Shown here: positions 24,955 to 55,653 of the stretch, piece by piece | Layout of the letters: every line of letters starts with the position of its first letter | How positions within the stretch are numbered: the first letter of the stretch is position 1 | NCBI GenBank assembly: GCA_017435365.1 | Contig: JAFSFD010000024.1 | Location: forward strand, 61,282 to 125,281 | Reading direction: 5' to 3' | Length of the DNA stretch: 64,000 nucleotides | DNA from: Akkermansia sp. | GTDB taxonomy: Bacteria; Verrucomicrobiota; Verrucomicrobiia; Verrucomicrobiales; Akkermansiaceae | Made by a program: the position numbers and the translations under genes | The notes under the pieces: generated by a model | What the model saw: the letters and a program-made list of their open reading frames with translations, nothing else | What the model was told of the DNA's origin: nothing | Database searches by the model: none

Positions 24955-25071
24955 GCTTGACTTTTATGTAAATAGTTGCTTAAATGCCCTCAGACAAGCC
25001 TCCCCCGCTTAGGGTTGGAATCCGTTGATTCCTTCAACTGCGCACATGGGGAGGTGTTTTTGTGTTTACTT

Positions 25072-26052: not shown

Positions 26053-26056
26053 TTTC

Positions 26057-26271: not shown

Positions 26272-26275
26272 TGCT

Positions 26276-26437
26276 CGCTTTCGGAATCCGTAAGTCAAGC
26301 ATACAAACTGTTTTATTTCGAGAAAATTGCGATACCCGGCACATCGTTTCATTATATGCTGGGGTTATAGTCTCATAAGCTGTTATTATCTGAACGTCAA
26401 ACCTAATCAAGGACACCTATTACGGATTCCGAAAGCG
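26276..26437. repeat. perfect 17-bp inverted repeat pair flanking an AT-rich 128-bp spacer
   Basis: cgctttcggaatccgta (26276-26292) and tacggattccgaaagcg (26421-26437). They lie in the divergent region between the integrase relic and the 26452 gene. Confidence 0.6.
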
Positions 26438-26451
26438 TAGAATGTCGGTGC

Positions 26452-27366: not shown

Positions 27367-30300
27367 ATGAAACTTCATCTCCCTGTTATACTTCGCAAGG
27401 CTCTGTTGGCCTGTTTTGCCTTTACCTTCGCTTGTACCAAGACTGTCTTTGCTGCTGACCTTACGTTGGGTAGCACAGATTCTCTGACCATTGATTATGC
27501 CGGAGCTGATTCCATTCCCGACCTGGATGGCGGCGCACTTACGCTGAAAGGTGATACCCTCCTCCTTTTGTCCAACTGTAGCAGCGGCGATGGCAAGACC
27601 TACACCCTGCTGACCGGGGTGGGGGACTTGCAGGATGCCGAGGGGAACCCTCTGTCACTGACGGATGAAAACAATGCGGCTTTGCTGTATTTCGATACCA
27701 CCCAACCCGGCACCGGCTTCTGGGGCGGTGGTTGGTTGCAGCTCACTTCGGAGGGGCACGTGCAGCTCGTGCTACATGGAGGAGAGGTGCAGGAGGCATT
27801 GACCATTTCCACCCGTCAGACCGGTTCGAAGACGTACAACTACTACGAGGGTATCTGTTTCCGGGATATTACCTATACGCTTTCCGGCACATCCAGTGCC
27901 TTTGGCGGCACGATTTACGGGGAGAGTTACAGTACCGTTACTCTGAGCAACAACGGCAGCGTGGTGTTCAGCGGGAACTCGGCTTCCTTCTTCTCCACCT
28001 CCTCCACCTCTGCCTTTGGCGGCGCGATTTACGGGGACAGTTACAGTACCGTTACACTGAGCAACAACGGCAGCGTGACGTTCACCGGGAACGAGGCCTC
28101 CTCCTCCTCCTACAGAGGGGCCTACGGCGGCGCGATTTATGGGGGAAGCAACAGCACCATCACACTGAGCAACAACGGTAGCGTGGTGTTTGCGGGGAAC
28201 ACGGCTTCCTCCTGCGGCCAGATTAGTGGGGATACCGTCACCCTGAGCAACAACGGCATCGAGGTGCTTGAGCTGCTCTACGACATTGCCCGCGGCGGCG
28301 CGATTTATGGCGACTATGACAGCACCATCGCGCTGAGCAACAACGGCAGCGTGGTGTTTGAGGGGAACACGGCTTCCTCCTTCGACTATGCCTCCGGCGG
28401 CGCGATTGATGGCAGCACAATCGACTTGAACAACAATGCGAGCGTATCGTTTATTGAGAATACTGCTGGCGTCGGCGGCGCGATTTGTGGCGGCACGATA
28501 GAGCTGAGCGGAAATGGAAGCGTGGAGTTCAGCGGGAACTCGGCTTCCCTCGACTCAGGCATTGCCCGCGGCGGCGCGATTTATGGCGACTATGGCAGCA
28601 CCATCGCGCTGAGCAACAACGGCAGCGTGGTGTTTGAGGGGAACACGGCTTCCTCCCTCGGCTATACCTACGGCGGCGCGATTCATGGGGATACCATCAC
28701 GCTGAGCAACAACGGCAGCGTGACCTTCAGTGGGAACAATGCGTCCAGCGATTACGCCCGCGGCGGCGCAATTTATGCGGAGGGGGCGTTGCATATTCGC
28801 AATAATGATTCGGTGGAATTTGCCGGGAATGTAGAAAAGAGTGATTCTGCCTACCGCTTACGCAGTGTATATGCCTCCGTTGGTGGTAGTGAACTCAGCA
28901 TATCGGCGGCAGCGGGCAAGTCGGTTGCCTTCTATGACTCAATCTATGTGGGCGAAAACGCTACTGTGAATTTGAATGCGGACTACGAGGATGCAGAGGG
29001 CAACATCATCGAGCAGAAGGGTGATATTGTCTTTACCGGTGCTACCACGGTGGCGGATTTGTACAAGGCCAAGGGGAATGTAGACGGCACGGAGGAGGAA
29101 ATCCGCCTTTCCCGCACATCCGAGGTGCTGAGCATGGCGAATTTGTACAATGGTCGTCTCATTATCAAGGAGGGAGCCATCTGGTCTGGCTCTGGAATAA
29201 CAGTTGGTCCTGTGGCGGGAGCCACTGGTAAGCCGACGCTCTTGCTGCAGAATGGTATATTGACGCATGTTGCTTCCTCTGCGACGAACCACAATGTTGT
29301 TACCATCAAATCCGGTGGAGCTTTTGAAGTTGCTGGTAAGAGTCAGGCAGACTATACGAGCCTGAATATGGAAAGCGGCAGTATACTTACGTTCAATATT
29401 GCTCCGGAGAATGCTTCAACAGCAGCTCTGACTCTGGATAGCAATAGTTCACTGACGCAGGAAGGGGCGCTTACGCTGAAACTGAAAGGTGATTACAGGC
29501 TGGTCAAGGGACTATCTTACAAACTACTTACAGGTTTGGATCAACCTGACACATGGGACGAAACCAGCGTAACCGTGGAATCCGGTTCGCTTGGCTGGGA
29601 TGTCGATTATACCGACCTGACCTGGGAAGGAGATACCCTGTGGATATACTACAATGGTAACATTCTGCCGCCGGTGGAATTCCGCCCGAATCTGGACCGC
29701 AACCAGCAGGAGGTGTATGATACCATCAAGGATGTTATGGGCGAGGGAAATCCTGGTGGGGTGCTGGGCGCCCTGGGTAGGGAGATTCTTGACTCGCGGG
29801 ATGAGACCGCGCTGAAACGCGCGCTGGATGAACTGAGCGGCCGCGAGTATGCCACCATCATGAGCAGCCAGATGGAGGGTAGCCTGGGGCACCTGCGCCG
29901 CTTGCGTGCGGCGGCAGGGGCTGGTACTCCGCTGGGTGAGTATGTGACATTTGGTTGCTGCTACCCGTCAAACAAGGGTGTGGATAAGAGCGATAACAAG
30001 GGCTCGAGTGTGATGATTGCACCAAGCCCGGTGATTGATTCCCGTCGTATCCGCGCAGGTGTGTCGGCTTTCCACGAGCAGGCTGAGCTGGATGCTGATG
30101 CCAATGGCGACGGCTTTGATCGCTCTGAAACCGGTGCGCAGCTGACGATGGAGTATCTGGTGAGCAATGATTTTGTGCTGGGTATGGGGCTTTCCCACAG
30201 CCGTACGAAGCTGAGCCCGACCTATGGTAAGCGCCGCCATGAGGACAATACACACTTTGACCTCTTCGGCGTGTACCGCAGCGGACGCTGGAGCAGCACC

Positions 30301-30870
30301 ACCGCACTGGGTGTGGGCTTGCACCAGCATGAGCTGGGCCGCACGGTGGCTGGTATGCAGACTGAGGCGGAGGCTGATGGCCTTTCTGTGAACTTTCTGC
30401 AGGATGTGGCCTATACAGTATGGGCTGATGAGCAGCATGGTGTGCAGGTGTTCGGTTCTGTGGAGAGCTCGTTCAACATGATTGATGAGTTCTCTGAAAG
30501 TGGTGCGGGTAATGCCTCTCTGCTGGTGGATGAGCAGGAAGCCTGGGCTACGGATGTAACGCTGGGTATGCGTTATAACCGCGCTCTGCCTGCGCTGGGT
30601 AAGGCTCTGCCAGGCACGCTGACGGTGCAGGCCGGTGTGGTAGCCAGTCTGGGTGACCGGGAACACGATGTCAGTATGCGCTTTGCCGGGGCCGAAGCCC
30701 ATGGTTATAAGCAGCATGCAGCCGAGCGCAACCGCTGGGGCTACAACGTAGGCATATCGGTGAATCTGCCGGTGACTGCCGAAACGGCGCTGTATGGCTC
30801 TGCCGAAGCGGTGATTCGCAATGCCTCCACCAGCGTGGATGCCCAGTTGGGTGTGAAGATGGCATTCTGA
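27367..30870 (+). CDS. Pmp-like (polymorphic outer membrane protein repeat) autotransporter
   Basis: Signal peptide, nine GGA[IL]x motifs (GGAIYG...) alternating with nine FxxN motifs (FSGN/FTGN/FAGN/FEGN), and a C-terminal ~280-aa beta-barrel-like domain ending in ...GVKMAF (terminal Phe). Confidence 0.85.
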   Translation: MKLHLPVILRKALLACFAFTFACTKTVFAADLTLGSTDSLTIDYAGADSIPDLDGGALTLKGDTLLLLSNCSSGDGKTYTLLTGVGDLQDAEGNPLSLTDENNAALLYFDTTQPGTGFWGGGWLQLTSEGHVQLVLHGGEVQEALTISTRQTGSKTYNYYEGICFRDITYTLSGTSSAFGGTIYGESYSTVTLSNNGSVVFSGNSASFFSTSSTSAFGGAIYGDSYSTVTLSNNGSVTFTGNEASSSSYRGAYGGAIYGGSNSTITLSNNGSVVFAGNTASSCGQISGDTVTLSNNGIEVLELLYDIARGGAIYGDYDSTIALSNNGSVVFEGNTASSFDYASGGAIDGSTIDLNNNASVSFIENTAGVGGAICGGTIELSGNGSVEFSGNSASLDSGIARGGAIYGDYGSTIALSNNGSVVFEGNTASSLGYTYGGAIHGDTITLSNNGSVTFSGNNASSDYARGGAIYAEGALHIRNNDSVEFAGNVEKSDSAYRLRSVYASVGGSELSISAAAGKSVAFYDSIYVGENATVNLNADYEDAEGNIIEQKGDIVFTGATTVADLYKAKGNVDGTEEEIRLSRTSEVLSMANLYNGRLIIKEGAIWSGSGITVGPVAGATGKPTLLLQNGILTHVASSATNHNVVTIKSGGAFEVAGKSQADYTSLNMESGSILTFNIAPENASTAALTLDSNSSLTQEGALTLKLKGDYRLVKGLSYKLLTGLDQPDTWDETSVTVESGSLGWDVDYTDLTWEGDTLWIYYNGNILPPVEFRPNLDRNQQEVYDTIKDVMGEGNPGGVLGALGREILDSRDETALKRALDELSGREYATIMSSQMEGSLGHLRRLRAAAGAGTPLGEYVTFGCCYPSNKGVDKSDNKGSSVMIAPSPVIDSRRIRAGVSAFHEQAELDADANGDGFDRSETGAQLTMEYLVSNDFVLGMGLSHSRTKLSPTYGKRRHEDNTHFDLFGVYRSGRWSSTTALGVGLHQHELGRTVAGMQTEAEADGLSVNFLQDVAYTVWADEQHGVQVFGSVESSFNMIDEFSESGAGNASLLVDEQEAWATDVTLGMRYNRALPALGKALPGTLTVQAGVVASLGDREHDVSMRFAGAEAHGYKQHAAERNRWGYNVGISVNLPVTAETALYGSAEAVIRNASTSVDAQLGVKMAF
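27880..28800 (+). repeat. intragenic tandem repeats (~120-140 nt units) of the Pmp passenger domain
   Basis: Units ...TLSNNGSVVF(S/E/A)GN(S/T)AS...GGAIYG... recur. 28285-28380 and 28561-28656 are 96 nt long with a single mismatch. Confidence 0.85.
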
Positions 30871-44395: not shown

Positions 44396-45799
44396 TCAGG
44401 CCAGAGCCTCTTCGAAACGTCCCATCATGTCGCGCAGGGCGGCATCTGAGCTGAGTTTGGATTCCACATTGCGCAGGGCGTGCAACACGGTGGAATGGTC
44501 GCGGCCGAAAGCGGCGCCGATATCCTGAAGCGAGCAGGAGGTATGGCGGCGCGCCAGGAACATGGCAACCTGTCGCGGATGAGCGAGTGAAGCCAGGCGC
44601 CGGCGGCTGTCCAGATCCTCCACACGGAGGCCGAACTCGTTTGCCACGCGTTGCTTGATATCGGCAATCGTTATACCGGAAGCGGCAGCCTGCTGCACCA
44701 TGAGGTCAGCCAGGTTTGTACGCAGAAAGGCGATGGACGGGCAGCTGTTGCTGAAGGAGGCGATGGTACTGGTGCGGACCAACGCCCCTTCCAGGGCGCG
44801 CACAGACTGGGTGATGTTGCGAGCGAGGAATTCGATTACCTCATTGCTGAGCAAGTTGGTCTTCCAGCGCTGCATTTTCTGCCGCAGAATGGCCATGCGC
44901 ATCTCGTAGCAGGGTGCGGTAAGCTCCACGGTCATACCCTGGGAGAAACGGGTCTTGAGGCGGTCGTCCATCCTGGTGATGCGGGAGGCCGGACAATCGG
45001 CAGAGAGCACAATCTGTTTGCCGCTTTCGAACAGTGCGTTGAAGGTATGGAAAAACTCCTCCTGCGTCTTGTCTGCTCTGGCCATGAACTGCACGTCATC
45101 GATAAGCAGCACATCTACCTTGCGGAACTTTTTGCGGAAAAGTTCCAGTGCATCGCCGCGCTTGCGTATGGCCTCAATGTAGGCGTTGGTAAATTGCTCA
45201 CTGGTCACGTACAGCACGCGCACATTCTCGCGGCGCGCACGCAGGGCGTTGCCTATGGCGTGCATCAGGTGGGTCTTGCCCATGCCTGAGTTCCCATAGA
45301 TGAAAAGGGGGTTGAAAATGCGTTCCTGGGTGTTGACCAGTGCCTGGGCCGCAGCGTAGGCAAGCTGGTTATTGGCACCGACCACGTAATTATCGAACGT
45401 ATAGTCAGCGTTCAACTGAGTCTGCATTTTGCCGGCGGCGCTGCTGCGCTGTCTGGTCGCGGTGCGGCGCTGCGGTGCTTCCTTCACCATTTCCTCCGGT
45501 GCAGGGCAGGGCTCTTCCGCTTTTTCCTCAGGCATACTGCCTGCTTCTATGTATTCCAGCTCGCGGGTCCCCTTCAGAACACGTGATGCAGAAAGGGCGA
45601 TACTATCACTGTAGTTCATCTCCAGCCAGATGAAAGGCATGTCCGACGGGTACTCGATGATGAGCTTGCTGCCGGTGTCCTCTATCAGGCGCAGTTTGGA
45701 AACAAAATCGCTAGCGTATCCCCCCGCCTGACCCTGGGTGCACATATCTTCCACGATATGCTCCCAGATGGTCTCATTCTCCTGTCGCTTTCTCTCCAT
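44396..45799 (-). CDS. dnaA: chromosomal replication initiator protein DnaA
   Basis: AAA+ Walker A GNSGMGKTHL, LLIDDVQF and C-terminal DNA-binding domain ...HPRQVAMFLARRHTSCSLQDIGAAFGRDHSTVLHA. The ATG at 45799 (MERKRQ...) is preferred over the TTG at 45868. Confidence 0.93.
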   Translation of the reverse strand: MERKRQENETIWEHIVEDMCTQGQAGGYASDFVSKLRLIEDTGSKLIIEYPSDMPFIWLEMNYSDSIALSASRVLKGTRELEYIEAGSMPEEKAEEPCPAPEEMVKEAPQRRTATRQRSSAAGKMQTQLNADYTFDNYVVGANNQLAYAAAQALVNTQERIFNPLFIYGNSGMGKTHLMHAIGNALRARRENVRVLYVTSEQFTNAYIEAIRKRGDALELFRKKFRKVDVLLIDDVQFMARADKTQEEFFHTFNALFESGKQIVLSADCPASRITRMDDRLKTRFSQGMTVELTAPCYEMRMAILRQKMQRWKTNLLSNEVIEFLARNITQSVRALEGALVRTSTIASFSNSCPSIAFLRTNLADLMVQQAAASGITIADIKQRVANEFGLRVEDLDSRRRLASLAHPRQVAMFLARRHTSCSLQDIGAAFGRDHSTVLHALRNVESKLSSDAALRDMMGRFEEALA

Positions 45800-45902
45800 C
45801 GTTTTTGTTTCCGTCTCGTTTCGTAGGTTTCGGTCTGTGGCCTCCCGCTCGGGGAGTGCGGGGTGCAATATGCCACGAGCTTGCGTTCAGAAAAAGATTT
45901 TT

Positions 45903-47860: not shown

Positions 47861-48439
47861 TTAACAATGAGTGTACGCTACGGCTCCACAATAGCCCGTT
47901 TCCGGGGAAAACAACTCCACGACCGGAGCAGGCTCGAAGAGACAGGAAATGCGCCCGTGCCGGTAGATGAAGGGATAATTCCTTGCATTCCACATGGTGT
48001 CCCCAGCGTGTTTCACCAGGGCCTCAGCTGCACACCAGCAGGCAAAGAATTCGTCCTGCGGACAATCGCGGGATTTGAATGCCGCCAGCTGCTCATCGCA
48101 CATGAAGCGCCCGGCAAGCGTTTCGAACCGGCGAGGGCGTATCTGCTCTATATCAACCCCGATGGGCTTATCGTGAAAGGCGAGGCACAGGCAATCTCCC
48201 GAATGGCTGATGTTGAAGTGCTGGATATTACACTCTGGCTTGCCGTGCGGCCCGTAGGAAAAAGAGGCATCTGCCGGTGCGATTCCATGCCTGCGTGCAA
48301 TTTCGTGGCGCAAGAGTGCGCGCACAAGCGCGTAGCTGCCGCCACGTCTCCGGGCTTCCTGGAGTTCAGCGGCAGATAACACAGAAGTATCCACCACCGT
48401 GTCATTCAGGGAAGAAATGCTGTATATCAGGTAATCCAT
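47861..48439 (-). CDS. Sfp-type 4'-phosphopantetheinyl transferase
   Basis: GPHGKPE, FNISHSG, IGVDIEQIR and WCAAEALVKH motifs. Confidence 0.8.
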   Translation of the reverse strand: MDYLIYSISSLNDTVVDTSVLSAAELQEARRRGGSYALVRALLRHEIARRHGIAPADASFSYGPHGKPECNIQHFNISHSGDCLCLAFHDKPIGVDIEQIRPRRFETLAGRFMCDEQLAAFKSRDCPQDEFFACWCAAEALVKHAGDTMWNARNYPFIYRHGRISCLFEPAPVVELFSPETGYCGAVAYTHC

Positions 48440-48930
48440 CAGATATTGACTATGCGGACAGAGTTTGTTTCTGTATCATATATGCCGATAGTCGGCTTAC
48501 CCTGGCGGCCGTAAACTTCTCCGGGGTTGGCGACCAGGGTGCTGCCATTCATGCGGACCTCGGGAATATGCGTGTGCCCGTAGAACACCGCATCATATCT
48601 GCCGCTTTCAGCTGCTTTGGCGGCGGTCCAGGGCAGGTGGCAGAAGTAGATGCGCCGGCCATCCAGCGTGATATCGGCATATTCACCGTGGAAACTCACC
48701 CGGTGCCACTGCCGGGCTGCGCGCTGAAATGCGGTTATCTCGTATTCATTATTGCCGAAAACCAGGTCGATATGGTGCCCCCATTCTTCCCGGAGTGTTC
48801 GGAAGGTGGAAAATCCGGCCATGTCGCCCATAAAAAGCAGGTGAGAGCAACGTTCCAGCTTTGCAGCGCAGAGAGCCAGCAGCAGGTGGGTGGTGTGGTC
48901 GTGAATATCAGAGAGCAGGGCAACAAGCAT
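48439..48930 (-). CDS. YfcE/MJ0936-type metallophosphoesterase
   Basis: LSDIHDH, FMGDM, GNNE and GHTHIPE metal-ligand motifs. 163 aa. Confidence 0.8.
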   Translation of the reverse strand: MLVALLSDIHDHTTHLLLALCAAKLERCSHLLFMGDMAGFSTFRTLREEWGHHIDLVFGNNEYEITAFQRAARQWHRVSFHGEYADITLDGRRIYFCHLPWTAAKAAESGRYDAVFYGHTHIPEVRMNGSTLVANPGEVYGRQGKPTIGIYDTETNSVRIVNI

Positions 48931-48935
48931 GGGTT

Positions 48936-51059
48936 TCAGCGCGTTTTTTTCATGATGAATACCGGCGAGAGCCGCACAGGCTCCTGCAAGGGCTCACCCC
49001 ATGCAGAGGTGGTCATGGCCGCCGGTGATAAATACCAGATTACCTGGCCGTCTGGCACCGTTTCGAAGAAAACGGCCTCACTCTTCTCATTGATATATCC
49101 GCAGAACTGAGGGGTGACACTCAGAAGAGCGCGTAGATTCTTCTGCAGTTCCGCAACAAAATCCACGTGCCGGTGCTTGTTGAACCAACGCAGGAACTTG
49201 CGCTCTGCCTCCGCGTGTGCCGGGGTGCGGCGAAGCCAGCAGTTGCCATCGAGCCGGATTCCACATGACTCCCGCAGCTTTTCGAAACTGCGCACAGCGC
49301 ATCTCATTTCCGGGGCATACCGCAGCCCGCAGAGCACTGGATGCTGCCCGGAGTTGTTGATTCGGAGCAAATGGTCGAATACATACGCCTTCGCAAGGGG
49401 TGGCACGTCCGGATGCTGATGGCGGAGAAGTCGCGAGATGGCGAGCGGCAAGTTCACCACGCTGCTGTATCCGCTCTTGTCATCCAGCCCGAGCTCGCGG
49501 TATAATGGGCGGGGATCCAGCGTGCGGCTGACCACTGAGGTCGGGTTCTGCCACTCGATGTATTTATCCTCGCTTATTTCGCGCTCCGGGTCCAGAGACG
49601 AACGGTGGAAGCAGGCCCGCCCGTACCGCAGCACCGGCAGTTCTTCTGAGTAGGCACAGAGATTGTCTGCTGTGTTGGTCAGCTCAAACAAGCGCGTGTT
49701 CAGAGCAGAGTTTGTCAGCAGCTCCCGGAGGAGATGCATCTGCTCCTGAGTCGCAGGGAACTGCGCTGAGAAAGAGGGTTTGCCATCCACCAGACTGGCT
49801 TTGGCGGCCAGCAGCAGCCCGGGCGGCAGCTCCTGCCCACGCTCCTGCATCATTCCGCGGAGGCTTGCCACGCTGGGCATGAATTTTACCACCCCCATGA
49901 GTTCAATCGCCGGCAGATAATGCTCTGGCTTGAACGAATGCAGCAGCTCTGTATAGCGCTCGTAACTATGGGCTGTCGGCAGCAGGCTGAGCAGGTGCTG
50001 AAATGCAGAGATTTCTGCTATCAGCCGATTGTGTGCCTGCATCTCCTGTCTGACGGTGGCGATGATGGATTCAGGCAATTTCAGAGCCTCTGCCGCATCT
50101 TCGTAGATAAGGACTCTCTGCCGGAGTGTATTCACTCTGTCGTTCAGGAGACGGAGGTCGTCCTCCGGGTTTCCTTTCAAGCCATTCCACTCCGGAAGCG
50201 GAGATATCAGTTCTTCCACCAGGGAAAGGCGCTGCTGATTAAGGGCCTCCTGTTCTTTTTCGCAAAGCGCGGCCCATCGCAGCTTCAGGGCAGCGGCATC
50301 TTCCCCCAGTTCTTTGAGTCTGCGTTCGATGAGAGCACGGCGGCGCACCCCCTGGCTGACCACACTCTGGGTTCCGTTTTCAATGGAACGGAGGATTTCA
50401 TCCAGTTCGCGGGCATGTTGTTCAGAAAGCCGGATGAGGCGCCTGAGTTTATCCGCCTGTTCGCTGACGCGCCGGTTCAAGGTGCGGTTCAACCCGGTAT
50501 CATGCACATGCAGGAGGGTGATGGCCTTGCTGCGTTGAAAGTTTGCAGAAGCGGCTTCACCCAGGACATCCGCCGCCTGGGCAGCCCGCTGCCACAGCAG
50601 ATAGCAGCCCGCCCCGCACGGAAGAAGCACTGCCAGGAGCGCGGCAATCCCCAGGGAAAGCTTGCCGAGCGGTTTTCTCCGCCGCTGACGTTCGCGGGCA
50701 ATGGCCGCCCGAAGTTGATTCAGCGTTTTGAGTTCACCGGCAGAAAGCATGTGGGAAAGAGCTTGCTCCAGGTAATATGCCCGATGCTTCAGTTTCTTAA
50801 GCCCGCTCCTGCCCATGCTGCTGAGTCTTTGCGGCTCAGTCAGGAACTCGTTGATAATGGTCTGCAGCTCCTTATATTCTGTTTCTTCAAATGAAAATGG
50901 CTTACCCGTCAGGTAGCGTGCGAGTTCATCCCTGGCCTTGGCGTGCTTCGGGTTCGACAGTATAGCCTGCTCCAGCATGTCTGCAGCCTCCTGTCGCCGT
51001 CCGGCGCGGGCAAGGCGGCGCAGCTTCTGCAACACAGGGTCTGATTTCCGGCGGGCCAT
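48936..51059 (-). CDS. hypothetical 707-aa single-pass membrane protein with long coiled-coil region (third gene of GTPase module)
   Basis: TPR-like N-terminal helix pair (RRQEAADMLEQAILSNPKHAKARDELARYL), a TM helix (LSLGIAALLAVLLPCGAGCYLLW), ~200 aa of heptad-rich helical sequence, then a globular C-terminal half. No family recognised. Confidence 0.6.
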   Translation of the reverse strand: MARRKSDPVLQKLRRLARAGRRQEAADMLEQAILSNPKHAKARDELARYLTGKPFSFEETEYKELQTIINEFLTEPQRLSSMGRSGLKKLKHRAYYLEQALSHMLSAGELKTLNQLRAAIARERQRRRKPLGKLSLGIAALLAVLLPCGAGCYLLWQRAAQAADVLGEAASANFQRSKAITLLHVHDTGLNRTLNRRVSEQADKLRRLIRLSEQHARELDEILRSIENGTQSVVSQGVRRRALIERRLKELGEDAAALKLRWAALCEKEQEALNQQRLSLVEELISPLPEWNGLKGNPEDDLRLLNDRVNTLRQRVLIYEDAAEALKLPESIIATVRQEMQAHNRLIAEISAFQHLLSLLPTAHSYERYTELLHSFKPEHYLPAIELMGVVKFMPSVASLRGMMQERGQELPPGLLLAAKASLVDGKPSFSAQFPATQEQMHLLRELLTNSALNTRLFELTNTADNLCAYSEELPVLRYGRACFHRSSLDPEREISEDKYIEWQNPTSVVSRTLDPRPLYRELGLDDKSGYSSVVNLPLAISRLLRHQHPDVPPLAKAYVFDHLLRINNSGQHPVLCGLRYAPEMRCAVRSFEKLRESCGIRLDGNCWLRRTPAHAEAERKFLRWFNKHRHVDFVAELQKNLRALLSVTPQFCGYINEKSEAVFFETVPDGQVIWYLSPAAMTTSAWGEPLQEPVRLSPVFIMKKTR

Positions 51060-51062
51060 AGG

Positions 51063-53861
51063 TTAGCGCTCCTCCTCCTGCAGGTTGAATTGCCAGAGCA
51101 ACTCGACATGACTCCCGAAGGAAATTCCCCGGAGCATGAGCACAGGAGAATGCTTCTGCTGCTCTTCCCATGTTTTCTGCTCCTCAGTATAGGCAGCGTA
51201 CATTGTGCGCGTGAGCACCTCGCAGACGCGCTGGCGGATAAGGTCACGCGTATTTCTGTTGTCCAGGAGCCGGGTGATGTTGTTGCGCGTCTGAATGGCT
51301 TTGAATTTGTTGGCCGATGCCTGCTCAGGGGTGATGTGAAGGATGGAATCCTGCGCGAGAATCCGCATAAGCACCTTATTGAACTGCTTATTGGCAAACA
51401 GTCGGAAATACGATTTGTGCAACTGGCGCTTTTCGCTGCGGCTGAGATTCTCGTTTGCCAGGGCGCAGCATATGTAGTACAGATGCCCCAGCGTCATCGA
51501 TTTATCTTTCAGAGCAACTTCTCCACAGCATGGCGTGTTCATGACCCGCTCAAAGGCTCGGTTCAGGCGTCCGGGTAAATCCGGCCTGTGTTCAAGCTCG
51601 CACCGCACGGTCGTGATGGAATCGGTTTCCTTCGTGACTTTTTCTCCCTGCCATTCGAAAGTTCCGGTTTTTTTGCCGGTGAATTGCAGGCCGTTGTGTC
51701 CGGCCAGAACCGGCAATTTGACCGAGAAGTGCACCTTATTTATATCGCTGCGGCTCAAAGTCCAGGGGAAATTCTGCTTTGGGCGCAAAGTGATGCGTGG
51801 AGCCGGGCGCTCGTTGGTTGCGGCCACGATTTCGAGGTCATCCGGGCTGATGGTCAGGTCTGCCATGGCCGCGGGGGGGAGGGCTTTCACCTTCCCGCCG
51901 GGAACGGGAATCCCGAAAGAAGAGGCCAATACTACGTTGGTATGGAAATCTTCCTGAGTCGGCACCGGAAAACTGACAACGGCTTCTGAGCCTTCACACC
52001 GGATGTGTTGCAGGCGCCCGGCTCTCACCGTGAAACGAACCTCCGGCACAGCCGCGGGCTGACCGTTCCTGTGCTCCGGTTTCAGCAGGAACTCACCTGC
52101 ATTTTCCGTCGGGGTGATGTAAAGATGATACCCATCCGGGCTGAGTTCGAGTCGCTGCGGGGCTTGCAGCTCGCCCCCTTTTGCGAAAGCCGAAACAACA
52201 TAGCTGCCCGTGTGAATGGAAAGCGGAAGTGCCGGGATGATGTTCTCCAGTTCTGCCGGCAGCGCATTACCACTTACCGCAGCAGAGGGGATAAGCGAAA
52301 CCCGGCCCGATACCGGAACGGCATCCGCTTCAGTTTCCTCCTCGGGCGTGCCGGAATCGGCAGTGGCCAGGATAGTAGGAGGGGGAGTCTGCCCGGAATC
52401 GGCAATCATGTACGGTTTTAATCGCTCACTCTGCATCAGCCCCATTACCTGGGGCTCCTTCTGTTTTAATTTTAACCAGTCGGCAATCTGCTGGCCATCA
52501 AATTGTTGTTTCCATTCCTCAGGGGTGGTGCCGTGAGTGGCCTCATAGAGGTAGAGGCGCACCATATCCGAATCCTGCAAGCCCAGCAGGCGGGCGCATT
52601 CGCACAATCGGCTGGCAGAGACCGCATGCCGCGCCCCTTTCTGCCTGGCATTCAAGATGAGCGAGGCCGCTTCCAGCAGCAAGGCATCCTCCGGATTGGC
52701 CACCGGGAGGGCAGCGAGGGTCCTGAGTAACTGATCTGCCGAATCGTGGTCATATTCTGCCCTCAATAAGGCTGCAAGCTGCTGGATGTTGTCTGTGCCG
52801 CTATGGGTCTGCACCGGGGCCGGTTCCTGTTTTGGCGAGTCGCAGTTGCCCGCAAGGTAGTGCCAGCCGGTCAGGGTGAGACACGCCGCAGCCCCCAGGG
52901 TGATAACCGTACCGGGAATGAACCGGGGCCTGGCGGGCTTCACATCATACAACAACCAATCCGGCTCTTCCGTGTAATGATAATGCGAAACGCTCCGTGA
53001 CAGAGTGCGCACAATGTTGACTTGCGGCGGCTGATGGCTCTGTGCCTGAACCGGCAGGCTGCCCGGTGGGGGCACAGGGGCTTCCACCTGGGGAATCTCC
53101 ATATCATCCGCTATTTCGAGAACCGGGTGTCCGGTGCGCACTGCCCGCTGTATCAGAGGTGAACCGGGGGCAGTCACCATGCGGAGCGTCTCGGCATAGC
53201 TATCGGCCTCATCTGCCACGGTGGTGTAGCTCACGCCCCAACCGCGGGTGGGCGTGAGCCAATCGCTTTCATGAAAAAGCAGCAGGATATCGGTGGACGG
53301 TGTGCCGGGCGCAATGGTGATGAGGCAATCGCGCTCAAACGGGCTTGTAAAGAATGCGCGGGCATTGGCCTTGTGGCCGGTAAGCCTTTTCCAGGTCGGC
53401 TGGGTAGAGGCATCCGGCAGGTACTCCGGAGTGGGGTCCGGTTCCTGCGTGATAAACCGGGGCTCCCCCTGCCACCGGCTAAGCCAGAACCCGCATTTCA
53501 GCAGGGCCAGGGTTACACCTGCCGGGGTGGGACGGAGTTTGTTCTGCAGCAGTTCCCGGACTTCCTCCGGGGCAAGGATTAAATGGTGGGCTATATAGCA
53601 GCCACGCCCGCTGTAATCGGCACCAGCCTGCTGCACGCAGCTGAGCACATGCCAGGAGATTCCGGCGTGGTCGAGAATATGATAACTGAATTGCGGACCG
53701 GTGGTCACGCTTCCCCCGCGTGGGTCACGATAAACACTGAGCGCCGAAAGCCGGGCGCACAGCGCCTTCGGGAGCTTCTCTGAACGCGCCACGATACCGT
53801 ACCCCGCCGCATGGGAATCCAGCAGCTGCAGTGCGCTCGTGTAGATGAGCTGGTACGACAT
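51063..53861 (-). CDS. hypothetical 932-aa protein with GAP1-like (GTPase-associated protein) N-terminal domain and central TM helix
   Basis: It starts MSYQLIYTSALQLLDSHAAGYGIVARSEKLP... It has a Pro-rich linker, a TM helix (FIPGTVITLGAAACLTLTGWHYL), a helical region, a beta-rich region and a helical C-terminal domain. The GAP1-like call is recollection-based only. Confidence 0.6.
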   Translation of the reverse strand: MSYQLIYTSALQLLDSHAAGYGIVARSEKLPKALCARLSALSVYRDPRGGSVTTGPQFSYHILDHAGISWHVLSCVQQAGADYSGRGCYIAHHLILAPEEVRELLQNKLRPTPAGVTLALLKCGFWLSRWQGEPRFITQEPDPTPEYLPDASTQPTWKRLTGHKANARAFFTSPFERDCLITIAPGTPSTDILLLFHESDWLTPTRGWGVSYTTVADEADSYAETLRMVTAPGSPLIQRAVRTGHPVLEIADDMEIPQVEAPVPPPGSLPVQAQSHQPPQVNIVRTLSRSVSHYHYTEEPDWLLYDVKPARPRFIPGTVITLGAAACLTLTGWHYLAGNCDSPKQEPAPVQTHSGTDNIQQLAALLRAEYDHDSADQLLRTLAALPVANPEDALLLEAASLILNARQKGARHAVSASRLCECARLLGLQDSDMVRLYLYEATHGTTPEEWKQQFDGQQIADWLKLKQKEPQVMGLMQSERLKPYMIADSGQTPPPTILATADSGTPEEETEADAVPVSGRVSLIPSAAVSGNALPAELENIIPALPLSIHTGSYVVSAFAKGGELQAPQRLELSPDGYHLYITPTENAGEFLLKPEHRNGQPAAVPEVRFTVRAGRLQHIRCEGSEAVVSFPVPTQEDFHTNVVLASSFGIPVPGGKVKALPPAAMADLTISPDDLEIVAATNERPAPRITLRPKQNFPWTLSRSDINKVHFSVKLPVLAGHNGLQFTGKKTGTFEWQGEKVTKETDSITTVRCELEHRPDLPGRLNRAFERVMNTPCCGEVALKDKSMTLGHLYYICCALANENLSRSEKRQLHKSYFRLFANKQFNKVLMRILAQDSILHITPEQASANKFKAIQTRNNITRLLDNRNTRDLIRQRVCEVLTRTMYAAYTEEQKTWEEQQKHSPVLMLRGISFGSHVELLWQFNLQEEER

Positions 53862-53863
53862 AC

Positions 53864-55606
53864 TCAGTATTGCGAACTGGGGATAAGGGAAGGTGCGACA
53901 TTGTGCATAGCCCAGAGCAGGGGCTCGGTCACGCGTACCGGATGCACCTGCCCGGAAGCCGGGCCGATGAGAGTGGAGCCGCTCCTTTCATCGTGGAACT
54001 CAACGGGAGATTCGCCCAGAGCACTGGCGGCAAAATAGCGTACGTTGGAGGATATGGCCTCCGCATTGGTGCAGATGTGCGGGGCGATATTGAAGATGAA
54101 TTGGCGCAGACGCGTGGAATTGACATTCACATGCTCAGCCATGAACATGCCATTGCGGCAGGCCGGCAGCAGCGGCTCCGGCCCCAGCAGGTGAATCCAG
54201 GTATCGCTCTTGCCGATGATGATGGCCAGTGGCACATCCAGCTTTTCAGACGGCGGCAGGTTGAGCCTGGTACGAAGCCTCATCTCAGACTCGGCAAGCA
54301 GCATGGCCTGCCGACCGGGGCGATACAGAGAATTGCGCAGCTGCGGGTCGGTGCTCTCCTGGAGCAGCTGGCGGAACCCGGGATTGGCGGTCGGGTCGAA
54401 CAGAAAGAGAATAGCCGATGCCACGCTCAGATGATGGCTGCCGGGGGTGAGTATATTGTCGCGCCCGGGCTGGAAATCCTCACCGGCGTTGTCATACAAC
54501 ACCAGGGAATGAGTTTCAGCCCCTTTGTTCAGGTTGTAGATGAAGGGCCGCGGCATGTTGGCGTAGACCCCCTGGCGCCATACCTTGTGGTACAAGCGCC
54601 CCTGCATCTGGGTCTTGGCAATGTAGGCCTCCTGCGGGGTACGGGCCGAGAACAATCGCATACGCATCTCATTGAGCGGCTCGTTCATCTCGGGATCCGA
54701 ATCACGGAACGGCATGCCGAAATCACGGGGGAACATCGTCTCCAGCTCATGCACAAGCGCAGTAAGGTAATAACTCTTGCCGGCAGCAGGCACCCCCACC
54801 AGTGAGATGATGTGTTGCTGTGTCTGGGTAAAGAAAGGCGGCAGCTTGCTGTGGCAGTGCGGGCAGGCAAACTCGCTGCATGGCACTCCCTCTGCATCCA
54901 GCGGGAGCCCCTGTGCGCTCGTGTATTCCGCGCGGAAGCGCAGCATGGCATCCTGCCCCAGAATCGGGTCACCAGTCAGGTTCGGGTGAGTCGCGATGCT
55001 CAGAATTTCATCAGGCGTGAAAAACTCCCAGCAACAAGGGCAGCGGAGCGCTTCCTGGTGTTCTTGTGTTGCAGGCTCCGGAATCATGGTTTCTCCGCTC
55101 CGGCTACCGGCGAAATTGGCCACATGCACTATATCCCGCAGGTAGAAGGCGCAATGCTCCAACCCTTGAAACGAGGCCAGCACATCCCCGGGTAACTCAG
55201 GTGCCACAAGCGGCAAATCTTCAAGCGCATACGGCCCGTACCACTCTTCCTGCGATGGGTTGAACAGAAACCACACTGTCGGATCATACTGGCTGAAATC
55301 CGGTCGGGAGGCATCATTCCCGTACCAGCAGATAAAACAGCCATTTTCCAGCACAAAGAGATACATTGTCTCCGGTCGGATGACCACATCCGACTTAAGC
55401 GAGGCCCCATTCAGCGAGTATCGGGAAACTTTGCCATGCGGAAAGAATCGACACACTGAGTCACGCTGGGCAAAAGACCCACCGTTTTCCGCGCTCATTT
55501 TAACGCGGAATGTGTTTTTTTCACCAGCCCCGACTGTCATGAACGCACCATCGGAGGCTCTCAGCTTGGCGGCCAGGCAATCGTAGATGTAGAGTTGTTT
55601 GTTCAT
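53864..55606 (-). CDS. FHA-like domain / split zinc-ribbon / TRAFAC-type P-loop GTPase
   Basis: Residues ~20-95 are FHA-like (...TVGAGEKNTFRV...RYSLNGASL...). CxxC pairs are RCPCCW (189-192) and CPHC (248-251). Walker A is GVPAAGKS (271-278; nt 54773-54796), the G3-like motif is YDNAGE (371-376) and the G4-like motif is IIGKSD (463-468). Confidence 0.72.
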   Translation of the reverse strand: MNKQLYIYDCLAAKLRASDGAFMTVGAGEKNTFRVKMSAENGGSFAQRDSVCRFFPHGKVSRYSLNGASLKSDVVIRPETMYLFVLENGCFICWYGNDASRPDFSQYDPTVWFLFNPSQEEWYGPYALEDLPLVAPELPGDVLASFQGLEHCAFYLRDIVHVANFAGSRSGETMIPEPATQEHQEALRCPCCWEFFTPDEILSIATHPNLTGDPILGQDAMLRFRAEYTSAQGLPLDAEGVPCSEFACPHCHSKLPPFFTQTQQHIISLVGVPAAGKSYYLTALVHELETMFPRDFGMPFRDSDPEMNEPLNEMRMRLFSARTPQEAYIAKTQMQGRLYHKVWRQGVYANMPRPFIYNLNKGAETHSLVLYDNAGEDFQPGRDNILTPGSHHLSVASAILFLFDPTANPGFRQLLQESTDPQLRNSLYRPGRQAMLLAESEMRLRTRLNLPPSEKLDVPLAIIIGKSDTWIHLLGPEPLLPACRNGMFMAEHVNVNSTRLRQFIFNIAPHICTNAEAISSNVRYFAASALGESPVEFHDERSGSTLIGPASGQVHPVRVTEPLLWAMHNVAPSLIPSSQY

Positions 55607-55624
55607 TGGGGTCTTCTTGCGCTC

Positions 55625-55653
55625 ATTATAACGGCTGAATCAGGCAGAGTCAA
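55625..55653 (-). promoter_or_regulatory. near-consensus sigma70 promoter of the GTPase module (TTGACT-17-TATAAT, 18-nt leader)
   Basis: The minus strand reads TTGACTctgcctgattcagccgtTATAATgagcgcaagaagaccccaATG. Confidence 0.6.

What the first reader, a model, noticed from the sequence alone, without database searches (positions are those of the whole stretch)
48936..55653. Candidate novel system: FHA/Zn-ribbon GTPase plus two giant uncharacterised membrane-anchored partners
Seen: three tightly packed genes (580, 932 and 707 aa; 2- and 3-nt gaps) lie behind the best promoter in the window (TTGACT-17-TATAAT). Gene 1 combines an FHA-like phosphopeptide-binding module, two CxxC pairs and a P-loop NTPase with G1/G3/G4-like motifs. 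Gene 2 opens with MSYQLIYTSA...GYGIVARS and has a mid-protein TM helix and large helical and beta-rich regions. Gene 3 has one TM helix, a long coiled coil and a globular C-terminus. Neither partner shows a recognisable catalytic motif. Recollection (unverified): the gene-2 N-terminus and the overall GTPase + huge partner + helical partner layout resemble the computationally predicted 'GTPase-centric' conflict systems (GAP1 and GASH proteins) described by comparative genomics. As far as I know these have not been characterised experimentally. The FHA fusion and membrane anchoring would be a distinct variant. Caveat: base composition matches the flanks and the neighbours are housekeeping genes, so a lineage-specific cell-biology role (envelope or division signalling) is equally possible.
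Basis: partly seen in the sequence, partly recalled or inferred. Interest (0 to 1): 0.85.

Follow-up and report, generated by a model that had tools for sequence, protein, structure and literature searches.

The report
Akkermansia membrane-anchored GTPase–GAP1 switch module
The three genes are a real, genus-wide Akkermansia version of a GTPase system that has been predicted by computer but never tested (DO-GTPase plus GAP1-N2 partner); it is inherited like a housekeeping module rather than a mobile defence island, so it is a new variant of a known kind, not a new system.

Summary
Three tightly packed minus-strand genes (580, 932 and 707 aa) follow a TTGACT-17-TATAAT site.

- **Gene 2:** it opens with a Pfam GAP1-N2 domain (61.9 bits, cutoff 24).
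- **Gene 1:** it is a divergent DO-GTPase2 (25.5 bits in the window; 34 of 48 homologues hit at E<=0.01). Its layout is degenerate FHA, GYF_2-like module, one 4-Cys zinc ribbon, then a TRAFAC GTPase. This rests on an AlphaFold model (pLDDT 86.8), Foldseek hits to FHA domains, and a distant relative that passes Pfam FHA.
- **What it is:** a GAP1-N2-type "GTPase-centric" system (Kaur et al. 2020, eLife). It is not the GASH/GAP1-N1 type.

New findings:
- The GTPase-GAP1 pair occurs in all 78 of 80 Akkermansia/Akkermansiaceae species loci that extend past the GTPase gene.
- The GTPase is as conserved as thiL and diverges in step with housekeeping genes.
- The system sits among housekeeping genes, not in a mobile island.
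- GAP1 keeps a constant ~300-aa cytoplasmic head and, in all but three species, one TM. Its outer part ranges from about 50 to 850 aa.
- Gene 3 is missing in one clade.
- A YfcE-type phosphoesterase and a PPTase travel with the block.
- Distant verrucomicrobial relatives add a MotA/ExbB proton-channel gene.

Most likely function: a transmembrane GTPase switch for an envelope process. A defence role is not excluded. No experimental data exist.

The parts
55625..55653 (-). sigma-70-like promoter candidate TTGACT-17-TATAAT, 18 nt upstream of the g1 start and divergent from panC
   Evidence: 11/12 match with an optimal spacer, one of three such sites in the window. A consensus match only; transcription was not tested.
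53864..55606 (-). g1: FHA(degenerate)-GYF_2-like-ZnR-DO-GTPase2, 580 aa, predicted cytoplasmic
   Evidence: 34/48 homologues hit DO-GTPase2; AF2 pLDDT 86.8
55319..55606 (-). g1 aa 1-96: FHA-fold beta-sandwich lacking the canonical Arg and SxxH phosphothreonine-binding residues
   Evidence: Foldseek hits to FhaA 3po8, GarA 7rj3, OdhI 4qcj, EmbR 2ff4 and Ki67; residue mapping against P0410, which passes Pfam FHA at 51.5 bits. No direct Pfam hit in the window copy.
55097..55285 (-). g1 aa 108-170: small beta-beta-alpha-beta module plus helix, GYF_2-like
   Evidence: secondary structure; collinear with the GYF_2 hit of relative P0410 (23.8 bits, just under the 25.8 cutoff). The assignment is inferred by transitivity.
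54827..55051 (-). g1 aa 186-260: one 4-Cys zinc ribbon (C189, C192, C248, C251) with an inserted beta-rich loop
   Evidence: all four Cys invariant in 48 sequences; model.
53867..54826 (-). g1 aa 261-580: TRAFAC-type GTPase domain (G1 GxxxxGKS 271-278; Walker B DxxGE 372-376; G4 GKxD 465-468; G5-like SAL 528-530)
   Evidence: motif conservation. Foldseek hits to EF-Tu, eRF3, GBP1 and Ras/Rab. Pfam DO-GTPase2/1.
51063..53861 (-). g2: GAP1-N2-type GTPase-associated protein, 932 aa, bitopic membrane protein
53112..53861 (-). g2 aa 1-250: conserved cytoplasmic head, made of GAP1-N2 (1-100) plus a region collinear with GAP1-M
   Evidence: GAP1-N2 at 61.9 bits; invariant residues are concentrated here; 57% mean identity here vs 32-34% after the TM. 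BLASTP against L085 GAP1, which carries GAP1-N2 and GAP1-M, aligns residues 3-210 with 4-214 (E 2.4e-11); weak Foldseek similarity to TagF.
52926..53111 (-). g2 aa 251-312: disordered Pro-rich juxtamembrane linker ending in the conserved YxYxEExD motif (Y294, E298, D301)
   Evidence: pLDDT below 50; invariant columns; 14% Pro vs a 7% background; no conserved PPG motif.
52851..52925 (-). g2 aa 313-337: transmembrane helix, predicted N-in
   Evidence: hydrophobic in 48/48 homologues although only 15% identical, with basic residues on the N side; a TM at the same place in 74 of the 78 Akkermansia loci that carry g2 and in all 5 distant relatives.
51066..52850 (-). g2 aa 338-932: fast-evolving, length-variable predicted periplasmic part (helical bundle 358-476, beta-sandwich-rich 520-760, helical 762-901, beta-hairpin 907-928)
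   Evidence: AF2 model; 32-34% identity; whole-protein length ranges from 266 to 1174 aa across species; only weak Ig-like Foldseek hits. Periplasmic location is inferred from topology.
48936..51059 (-). g3: 707-aa bitopic partner with a TPR-like cytoplasmic N-terminus (aa 10-50), a TM (131-157), and a helical/coiled-coil plus globular predicted periplasmic part
   Evidence: TM KD 2.11. TM conserved in 37/37, with RRRKP on the N side. TPR_14; coiled-coil chain hits; weak similarity to the 1017-aa third protein of a Methylacidiphilales locus; absent in the L038-L042/L052 clade.
48439..48930 (-). Metallophos_2 / YfcE-family phosphoesterase, 163 aa, 5 nt after g3; a possible accessory or output component
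   Evidence: 90.5 bits. YfcE subfamily at 50.6 bits, below the cutoff; follows the system in about 66 of 80 Akkermansia loci, including those with different outer flanks and the clade without g3. Absent next to distant relatives. Functional linkage is inferred, not shown.
47861..48439 (-). Sfp/AcpT-type 4'-phosphopantetheinyl transferase, overlapping the phosphoesterase stop by 1 nt; co-travels with the block
   Evidence: present after the block in 72 loci. May be plain conserved synteny.

Best explanation
**What it is (shown).** This is the Akkermansia form of a GAP1-N2-type DO-GTPase system. A cytoplasmic GTPase (g1) carries a degenerate FHA domain, a GYF_2-like module and one zinc ribbon. 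It is encoded immediately upstream of its cognate GAP1 protein (g2).

**How it most likely works (inferred).**
- g2 is a single-pass inner-membrane protein. Its conserved ~300-aa cytoplasmic head (GAP1-N2 plus a GAP1-M-like region) docks the GTPase.
- The docking possibly uses the FHA and GYF-like modules, which may bind the Pro-rich juxtamembrane linker or its YxYxEExD motif.
- g2's long, fast-evolving, length-variable C-terminal part faces the periplasm.
- g3 is a second single-pass protein with a TPR-like cytoplasmic N-terminus and a helical/globular periplasmic part. It joins the complex.
- The GTP/GDP cycle of g1 then acts as a switch. It couples events at the envelope, sensed or scaffolded by the periplasmic domains, to a cytoplasmic state, or the reverse.

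**Biological role (inferred).** The module is present throughout the genus, diverges in step with housekeeping genes and always sits among housekeeping genes. I therefore favour a resident envelope or cell-surface control function over a mobile immunity cassette. In other Verrucomicrobiota the same GTPase-GAP1-third-protein set is followed by MotA/ExbB-type proton-channel genes, which suggests the ancestral machine used proton-motive force. Akkermansia keeps the switch/sensor half and has a YfcE-type phosphoesterase directly downstream as a possible output.
For: **Family identity**
- g2 matches GAP1-N2 at 61.9 bits, and 46/48 homologues do too.
- 34/48 g1 homologues hit DO-GTPase2. Distant relatives P0313, P0328 and P0331 pass the cutoff.
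- The Walker-B Glu, the zinc ribbon and the gene order GTPase then GAP1 all match the published definition.

**Domain structure**
- Both AF2 models are confident: pLDDT 86.8 and 83.2.
- The FHA fold comes from Foldseek. P0410 gives FHA at 51.5 bits and GYF_2 at 23.8 bits, and it aligns collinearly with g1.

**Topology**
- TM hydrophobicity is conserved in 48/48 (g2) and 37/37 (g3) homologues, with basic N-flanks.
- The same single-TM layout occurs in 5 distant loci.

**Constant head, variable outer part**
- The head averages 57% identity against 32-34% for the outer domains.
- g2 length ranges from 266 to 1174 aa, while g1 stays at 569-588 aa.

**Core status and vertical descent**
- 237 species-level genomes encode a relative. 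The best 80 are all Akkermansia or Akkermansiaceae.
- The pair is present in all 78 loci that extend past the g1 gene.
- g1 identity correlates with thiL, dnaA and panC (rho 0.78-0.86), and its mean identity equals thiL's.
- The flanks are panC, thiL and dnaA, or tig-clpP-clpX in L073.
- GC matches the flanks. There are no PADLOC hits.

**MotA/ExbB link**
- It is present in 4 of 4 distant loci with enough downstream sequence.
Against: - There is no experimental evidence for any member of this class (literature searches).
- The only published interpretation is a conflict/immunity system (PMC7159879).
- A fast-evolving, size-polymorphic outward-facing domain is also what an arms race would produce.
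- The g1-g2 contact, the periplasmic location and the GTPase activity are all inferred.
- No complex prediction was possible, and g3 was not modelled.
- No MotA/ExbB gene lies within 10 kb in 80 Akkermansia loci or elsewhere in the window. The proton-motive-force link may therefore not apply here.
- The phosphoesterase and PPTase adjacency may be simple synteny within one genus.
- The FHA and GYF assignments for the window copy rest on a model and on transitive homology.
Confidence: 0.55

Rival explanations
1. It is a conflict (anti-phage or anti-invader) system, as proposed for the whole class by Kaur et al. 2020. The variable outward-facing domains of g2/g3 sense an invader at the envelope. 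The GTPase-GAP1 pair sets a threshold. An effector, here possibly the YfcE-type phosphoesterase, limits infection or triggers dormancy or suicide.
For: - It belongs to the GAP1-N2/DO-GTPase class, which its discoverers interpret this way.
- g2/g3 evolve much faster than g1: 45% and 42% mean identity against 70-75%.
- g2's outer part is strongly length-polymorphic, and g3 is lost in one clade.
- Calcineurin-type phosphoesterases are the commonest effectors of the sister GAP1-N1 systems.
- One distant relative sits next to a ubiquitin-like conjugation gene set, a typical conflict-system neighbour (L088).
Against: - The published definition says these are mobile neighbourhoods. Here the block is fixed and vertically inherited in all 78 of 80 sampled species loci that extend past g1, and it is flanked by housekeeping genes.
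- No PADLOC model hits.
- There is no recognisable toxin or effector domain in g2/g3.
- The neighbouring CPBP protease and PPTase evolve about as fast as g2/g3 (47% and 54%), so the rate alone is not diagnostic.
- The phosphoesterase is absent next to distant relatives.
Confidence: 0.25
2. The trio is the regulatory front end of the seven-gene operon. Its real output is metabolic or biosynthetic, for example controlling phosphopantetheinylation of a carrier protein (PPTase) or a phosphodiester turnover step (YfcE-like) linked to envelope lipid or surface-polymer synthesis.
For: - Tight packing continues from g1 through Metallophos_2, PPTase, CPBP protease and thiL, with gaps of 5, -1, 6 and 6 nt.
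- The order g1-g2-g3-mpe-ppt is kept even where both outer flanks differ.
- The phosphoesterase abuts g2 directly in the clade that lacks g3.
Against: - The association is confined to Akkermansia. L073 and five distant relatives lack both genes next to the pair.
- Six Akkermansia loci have no detectable phosphoesterase even though sequence continues past g3.
- thiL and the PPTase are ordinary housekeeping enzymes with no known GTPase control.
- Conserved order within one genus is weak evidence.
Confidence: 0.1
3. The three genes are merely neighbours without a shared function.
For: Only gene order and spacing link them directly in this window.
Against: - Divergence co-varies with rho 0.97 (g1 vs g2) and 0.92 (g1 vs g3).
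- The pair is adjacent in all 78 Akkermansia loci that extend past g1 and in 5 distant loci with unrelated flanks.
- The GTPase-GAP1 pairing is the defining feature of the published class.
Confidence: 0.03

Closest known systems
GAP1-N2-type DO-GTPase ('GTPase-centric') systems, Kaur, Burroughs, Iyer & Aravind 2020, eLife 9:e52696 (Pfam PF19993 DO-GTPase2, PF20013 GAP1-N2, PF20014 GAP1-M)
   Same: - A TRAFAC GTPase with a Walker-B Glu and an N-terminal zinc ribbon.
- The GAP1-N2 protein is encoded immediately downstream.
- GAP1 carries a TM segment.
- The remaining parts are variable.
- Verrucomicrobia are listed among the host phyla.
   Different: - There is a single GTPase with one zinc ribbon, not two.
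- FHA and GYF_2-like modules sit in front of the zinc ribbon. The paper's main text does not describe this for DO-GTPases.
- No FNIII-repeat protein, tubulin, HSP70 or kinase/PP2C theme is present.
- GAP1-M is only inferred, and GAP1-C is not detected.
- The system is not mobile; it is fixed and vertically inherited across a genus.
- Relatives carry MotA/ExbB genes, which the paper does not mention.
GAP1-N1 / GASH-type DO-GTPase systems (same paper)
   Same: - The same overall logic: a DO-GTPase plus a GAP1.
- Calcineurin-type phosphoesterase is their commonest effector, and one lies 5 nt downstream here.
   Different: - g2 carries N2, not N1.
- No GASH signal appears in g3 or its homologues.
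- Those systems usually have two GTPase genes.
TagF-Fha checkpoint of type VI secretion (Lin et al. 2018, PMC5995506; A. baylyi TagF/TagZ, bioRxiv 10.64898/2025.12.08.692957)
   Same: - The best PDB fold match of g2 is TagF 9t0n (probability 0.97, 249 columns).
- TagF binds an FHA-domain protein through its N-domain.
- TagF works with TagZ, a single-pass membrane protein with a short cytoplasmic N-terminus and a variable periplasmic domain. That layout recalls the g2 head, the g1 FHA and g3.
   Different: - The similarity is weak: E 0.03, target TM 0.32, rmsd 8.2.
- There is no sequence or profile link.
- No T6SS genes are nearby.
- TagF is not known to partner a GTPase.
- This is a lead, not a membership claim.
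FHA-fold domains that bind without phosphothreonine, e.g. the cytoplasmic domain of T3SS YscD/EscD (Pfam PF16697 Yop-YscD_cpl)
   Same: - An FHA beta-sandwich that lacks the canonical Arg/Ser/His pocket.
- Relative P0410 passes both PF00498 and PF16697.
- It is a membrane-proximal scaffold domain.
   Different: - Here the domain is fused to a soluble GTPase rather than to an inner-membrane ring protein.
- That YscD-type FHA domains are phospho-independent is from my own knowledge, not tested here.
Small-GTPase-controlled, MotA/ExbB/TolQ-powered envelope machines (Myxococcus MglA-MglB with AglRQS; Tol-Pal; TonB-ExbBD)
   Same: Distant relatives combine the GTPase-GAP1 pair with a 4-TM MotA_ExbB protein and two N-terminally anchored proteins that have ExbD/TolR-like topology.
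   Different: - No homology of g1 to MglA or of g2 to MglB was shown.
- No stator genes lie near the Akkermansia block.
- This is an analogy from general knowledge only.

Membership tests
GAP1-N2-type DO-GTPase system (Kaur et al. 2020) | A GAP1 protein with a GAP1-N2 N-terminal domain | tested here: met
   PF20013 at 61.9 bits vs cutoff 24, E 8.6e-17, aa 1-100. 46/48 homologues also hit.
GAP1-N2-type DO-GTPase system (Kaur et al. 2020) | A DO-GTPase: a TRAFAC-clade GTPase of the DO-GTPase family with a conserved Glu in Walker B | tested here: met
   - The window copy scores 25.5 bits against PF19993, just under the cutoff of 27.
- 34/48 homologues hit at E<=0.01, and relatives P0313, P0328 and P0331 pass the cutoff.
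- D372xxG375-E376 is present, with E in 34/48.
- Foldseek hits TRAFAC GTPases.
- Membership is as a divergent subfamily.
GAP1-N2-type DO-GTPase system (Kaur et al. 2020) | The GAP1 gene lies immediately downstream of the DO-GTPase gene | tested here: met
   A 2-nt gap in the window. The same order holds in all 78 Akkermansia loci that extend past g1 and in 5 distant loci.
GAP1-N2-type DO-GTPase system (Kaur et al. 2020) | N-terminal zinc ribbon(s) on the GTPase (usually two in N2 systems) | tested here: met
   One 4-Cys ribbon, with C189, C192, C248 and C251 invariant. One ribbon rather than two.
GAP1-N2-type DO-GTPase system (Kaur et al. 2020) | GAP1-M and GAP1-C domains following GAP1-N | tested here: inconclusive
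   - No Pfam GAP1-M or GAP1-C hit in g2, its sub-domains or 48 homologues.
- g2 aa 4-214 aligns collinearly with L085 GAP1, which carries GAP1-N2 plus GAP1-M at 37.4 bits. A divergent GAP1-M is therefore likely.
- GAP1-C was not detected.
GAP1-N2-type DO-GTPase system (Kaur et al. 2020) | An accompanying protein with rapidly evolving FNIII repeats | tested here: inconclusive
   - No fn3 Pfam hit in g2, g3 or their homologues.
- The g2 model has a beta-sandwich-rich region at 520-760, with only low-probability Ig-like Foldseek hits.
GAP1-N2-type DO-GTPase system (Kaur et al. 2020) | A mobile gene neighbourhood with variable effector components | tested here: not met
   - The block is fixed and vertically inherited, with housekeeping flanks.
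- No recognisable effector is present. The only variable parts are the outer domains of g2 and the presence of g3.
- This concerns the proposed biology (conflict) rather than the molecular family.
GAP1-N1 / GASH-type system | A GAP1-N1 domain and a GASH-domain helical protein | tested here: not met
   g2 hits N2, not N1. g3 and its homologues show no GASH hit, even at E<=10 on sub-domains.
Canonical phosphothreonine-binding FHA domain (PF00498) | The FHA beta-sandwich fold | tested here: met
   AF2 model plus Foldseek: rmsd 2.1-2.7 A, target TM 0.7-0.77 to FhaA, GarA, OdhI, EmbR and Ki67. Homologous relative P0410 scores 51.5 bits on PF00498.
Canonical phosphothreonine-binding FHA domain (PF00498) | The conserved Gly-Arg, Ser-x-x-His and Asn pocket residues | tested here: not met
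   - G26 is invariant, but the next residue is Ala or variable.
- The SxxH loop is deleted or altered relative to P0410's IGR...SQLH.
- N66-G67 is kept.
- There is no Pfam hit in the window copy.
Known anti-phage defence systems (PADLOC-DB v2) | A match to any defence-system protein model | tested here: not met
   No meaningful hit for g1, g2 or g3 at E<=0.1. The only line is PycC at E 0.04 on a coiled-coil stretch of g3.
TagF (T6SS accessory, DUF2094) | Sequence or profile membership and a T6SS gene context | tested here: not met
   Only a weak fold match. No Pfam or PDB-profile hit. No T6SS genes are nearby.

The most novel reading that the evidence does not exclude
In Verrucomicrobiota the GAP1-N2/DO-GTPase module is not an immunity cassette. 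It is the GTPase control unit of a previously unrecognised trans-envelope machine powered by proton-motive force. The machine would comprise two bitopic scaffold/sensor proteins, a MotA/ExbB-type stator and two ExbD-like partners. Its FHA-fold/TagF-like pairing would be evolutionarily related to the TagF-Fha checkpoint of type VI secretion. Akkermansia would retain a streamlined, genus-core version. Its rapidly diversifying periplasmic domain would tune a surface or envelope process relevant to life in the mucus layer.
Probability: 0.2. Interest if true: 0.8.

Novelty: new variant of a known kind. Interest (0 to 1): 0.55.

Why it matters
- **An untested class.** DO-GTPase/GAP1 systems are a large family: 3,087 clusters at 50% identity match the g1 profile. 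They are known only from one comparative-genomics paper, and no member has been tested.
- **A good experimental entry point.** Akkermansia is a prominent, now genetically tractable gut commensal. It carries one compact copy that appears fixed in the genus.
- **A test of the published interpretation.** The data challenge the general reading of the class as mobile conflict systems, because this lineage inherits the module like a housekeeping gene set.
- **Concrete experiments.** The constant cytoplasmic head paired with a hyper-variable outer domain, together with the MotA/ExbB link in relatives, points to specific tests of whether the class does envelope signalling or immunity.

Tried and rejected
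- **PADLOC and NCBIfam on the trio:** nothing.
- **PDB sequence or profile searches with g1, g1 N-terminus, g2 and g3:** no informative relatives. Only zinc-finger, coiled-coil and TPR noise turned up.
- **Pfam on isolated sub-domains at E<=10:** no GAP1-M, GAP1-C, fn3, GASH, FHA or GYF_2 in the window copies.
- **GYF ligand idea:** the g2 linker is Pro-rich, but a PPG motif is present in only 5/48 homologues. A specific GYF-PPG interaction is not supported.
- **TagF homology:** it rests on a single weak Foldseek hit and is not corroborated by sequence. I kept it as a lead only.
- **g3 as homologue of the ~1010-aa third proteins of distant loci:** only one of four shows weak similarity, at E about 1e-4 in a tiny database. 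It is treated as a topological analogue and a possible remote homologue.
- **Mapping to A. muciniphila type-strain locus tags, to use published transposon or expression data:** cluster look-ups returned only MAG accessions. Literature searches found no mention of these genes.
- **The supplementary file of the eLife paper held as text:** it has no Akkermansia entry.
- **Rfam scan of the window:** no RNA families.
- **Terminator-like sites in the region:** not above chance (12 found vs 9.3 expected), so operon boundaries could not be set.

Full report
**1. Observation**

The three ORFs are real and lie on the minus strand: g1 55606..53864 (580 aa), g2 53861..51063 (932 aa) and g3 51059..48936 (707 aa). 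The gaps are 2 and 3 nt.

TTGACT-17-TATAAT lies at 55653..55625(-), 18 nt upstream of the g1 start and divergent from panC. It scores 11/12. It is one of three such sites in the 64-kb window, so it is tied for best.

Tight packing does not end at g3. Four more genes follow, with gaps of 5, -1, 6 and 6 nt:
- a Metallophos_2/YfcE-like phosphoesterase (48930..48439);
- an Sfp/AcpT-type PPTase (48439..47861);
- a CPBP protease;
- thiL.

dnaA lies after a ~300-nt gap. GC content (0.56-0.60) matches the flanks.

**2. Family identity**

- **g2:** residues 1-100 match Pfam GAP1-N2 at 61.9 bits (cutoff 24). 46 of 48 homologues do the same.
- **g1:** it matches DO-GTPase2 at 25.5 bits, just under the cutoff of 27. 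34 of 48 homologues hit it at E<=0.01. More distant relatives pass the cutoff.

Kaur et al. 2020 (PMC7159879) define "GTPase-centric" systems by three features. There is a TRAFAC GTPase with a Walker-B Glu. It often has N-terminal zinc ribbons. A GAP1 gene follows it. GAP1-N2 systems are reported from Verrucomicrobia among other phyla, and their GAP1 proteins are often TM-anchored.

It is wrong for GASH, which belongs to the GAP1-N1 subtype and gives no signal here. PADLOC and NCBIfam give nothing. The literature library holds no experimental work on the class.

**3. Anatomy of g1**

The AF2 model is confident (pLDDT 86.8). The domains in order:

| Residues | Feature | Evidence |
|---|---|---|
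| 1-96 | All-beta sandwich with FHA fold. Foldseek matches FhaA, GarA, OdhI, EmbR and Ki67 FHA domains at rmsd 2.1-2.7 A, target TM 0.7-0.77 | |
| 108-170 | Beta-beta-alpha-beta unit plus a helix, GYF_2-like | |
| 186-260 | One zinc ribbon; four Cys invariant in 48 sequences | |
| 261-580 | GTPase with G1 (GxxxxGK277S), DxxGE, GKxD and an SAL G5-like motif. Foldseek hits EF-Tu, eRF3, GBP and Ras | |

Pfam does not see FHA or GYF_2 in the window copy. The exhaustive profile search, however, aligns g1 collinearly with P0410 (profile 23-568, E 1e-82). P0410 scores FHA at 51.5 bits, Yop-YscD_cpl at 33.3 bits and GYF_2 at 23.8 bits at the matching positions.

Aligned to P0410's canonical IGR...SQLH, g1 has VGA and lacks the SxxH loop. 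The FHA is therefore degenerate and probably binds independently of phosphorylation (inference). The paper's main text does not describe an FHA or GYF fusion to DO-GTPases.

**4. Anatomy of g2 and g3**

The g2 model (pLDDT 83.2) shows these parts:
- a globular alpha/beta head (1-250);
- a disordered Pro-rich linker (14% Pro vs 7% background), ending in an invariant YxYxEExD motif;
- one long helix at 316-337;
- a helical bundle (358-476);
- a second linker;
- a beta-sandwich-rich region (520-760);
- a helical C-terminus ending in a beta-hairpin.

The helix is only marginally hydrophobic in this copy (KD 1.56). It is hydrophobic in 48/48 homologues despite 15% sequence identity, and it has basic residues on its N side. 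I treat it as a real TM with N-in orientation.

BLASTP aligns g2 residues 4-214 with residues 3-210 of L085's GAP1, which carries GAP1-N2 plus GAP1-M (E 2.4e-11). A divergent GAP1-M is therefore likely. GAP1-C and FNIII are not detected.

The best fold match of g2 is the T6SS regulator TagF (9t0n: probability 0.97, E 0.03, target TM 0.32). TagF binds the FHA protein Fha and, in A. baylyi, works with the single-pass protein TagZ. No sequence-level support exists, so this is an attractive parallel and a lead only.

g3 has a TPR-like N-terminus. It has a strong TM at 134-152, preceded by RRRKP. Its helical/coiled-coil region gives only generic hits. g3 was not folded.

**5. Distribution and evolution**

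A scan of one genome per species found relatives in 237 genomes. The best 80 are all Akkermansia or Akkermansiaceae.

A tblastn and ORF census shows the following:
- g1 is constant at 569-588 aa.
- g2 always follows g1 wherever the contig extends past the g1 gene. It keeps its head and, nearly always, a TM at about 290-330.
- g2's total length ranges from 266 to 1174 aa.
- g3 is 648-716 aa and is absent in one clade (L038-L042, L052).
- The phosphoesterase and PPTase follow the block in most loci, even where both outer flanks differ.
- In L073, a more distant Akkermansiaceae genome, only the pair remains, followed by tig-clpP-clpX-tsaD-tmk.

g1 identity tracks thiL, dnaA and panC (rho 0.78-0.86). 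Its mean identity (75%) equals thiL's. g2 and g3 average 45% and 42%, and they co-vary tightly with g1 (rho 0.97 and 0.92). The neighbouring CPBP protease and PPTase evolve at broadly similar rates (47% and 54%). Within g2 the head averages 57% identity and the post-TM domains 32-34%.

This pattern indicates vertical inheritance of a genus-core module with a constant cytoplasmic engine and a plastic outward-facing part. It does not fit the "mobile neighbourhood" part of the published description.

**6. Wider family**

The g1 profile finds 3,087 clusters at 50% identity (468 at E<=1e-30). Most share only the zinc ribbon plus GTPase. Full-length FHA-bearing relatives come from Verrucomicrobiae and Methylacidiphilales.

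Their neighbourhoods repeat one pattern:
1. GTPase;
2. GAP1-N2 protein with one TM at 300-347;
3. a ~1010-aa protein with one TM;
4. a small gene;
5. MotA_ExbB with 4 TMs;
6. two N-terminally anchored proteins of ~260-300 aa.

MotA_ExbB is present in 4 of 4 loci with enough downstream sequence. The paper's main text does not mention it. No homologue lies within 10 kb of the 80 Akkermansia loci or anywhere in the window. Only one of the ~1010-aa proteins shows weak similarity to g3.

**7. Interpretation**

**Shown:**
- family membership of g1 and g2;
- domain architecture;
- conserved pairing;
- conserved single-TM layout;
- vertical inheritance;
- housekeeping context.

**Inferred:**
- g1 docks on the g2 cytoplasmic head;
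- the large C-terminal parts of g2 and g3 are periplasmic;
- the GTPase cycle couples envelope events to a cytoplasmic state.

I favour a resident envelope-control switch (confidence 0.55) over the published conflict reading (0.25). The fast-evolving, size-polymorphic outer domain keeps the conflict reading alive. Control of the downstream phosphoesterase and PPTase is a minor rival (0.1).

**8. Novelty and score**

The class is known and modelled in Pfam, so this is not a new system. Four features make the Akkermansia/Verrucomicrobiota form a new variant of a known kind:
- the FHA(degenerate)-GYF-ZnR-GTPase architecture;
- the bitopic third partner;
- genus-core vertical inheritance;
- the MotA/ExbB association in relatives.

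The interest score is 0.55, for three reasons:
- the class is untested;
- the host is prominent;
- the evidence cuts against the only published functional interpretation.

The score is limited because the mechanism remains inferential.

Noticed in passing
window 23929-27321 (and 27367-30870): A low-GC patch (GC 0.45-0.53) holds a phage-integrase-family gene (23929-24954, minus strand) and two ORFs with no Pfam hit. Next to it is a 1167-aa autotransporter with Chlamydia-PMP repeats. It looks like a small integrated islet, about 22 kb from the finding and unrelated to it.
   Followed up: partly
window 52959-52982 (g2 aa 294-301): An invariant or near-invariant YxYxEExD motif sits at the end of an otherwise disordered, Pro-rich juxtamembrane linker of g2. 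It is a candidate docking peptide for g1's degenerate FHA or GYF-like module.
   Followed up: partly
L085 5768-6655; L087 17781-end; L088 17111-19767; L089 8019-10701: MotA/ExbB-family proton-channel genes follow the GTPase-GAP1 system in all four distant verrucomicrobial loci with enough downstream sequence. In L088 and L089 two N-terminally anchored ~260-300-aa proteins with ExbD/TolR-like topology come next. This association is not mentioned in the eLife 2020 main text. It is absent near the Akkermansia blocks.
   Followed up: partly
L088 426-8967: Directly upstream of one distant GTPase-GAP1 system, and co-oriented with it, lies a ubiquitin-like conjugation gene set. It comprises YukD, ThiF/E1, JAB, UQ_con/E2, Prok-RING/TM2, an FHA/YscD-like membrane protein, trypsin and ankyrin.
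   Followed up: no
L034-L036 (g2 ~266 aa), L075/L078 (~380 aa), L042 (1174 aa), L038-L042/L052 (no g3): g2 shows extreme length polymorphism between Akkermansia species, including forms with no TM and no outer part. One clade has lost g3 completely, while g1 stays constant.
   Followed up: yes
window 49477-49506 (+) and 44359-44330 (-): Two further 11/12 sigma-70-like sites occur in the window. One is antisense inside g3. The other is just upstream of the Rrf2-family gene after dnaA.
   Followed up: no
window 44396-45868 (-): dnaA lies only about 300 nt downstream of the operon-like array, so the system sits close to the probable replication origin region. In several Akkermansia species the block is elsewhere, with no dnaA within 10 kb.
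   Followed up: partly
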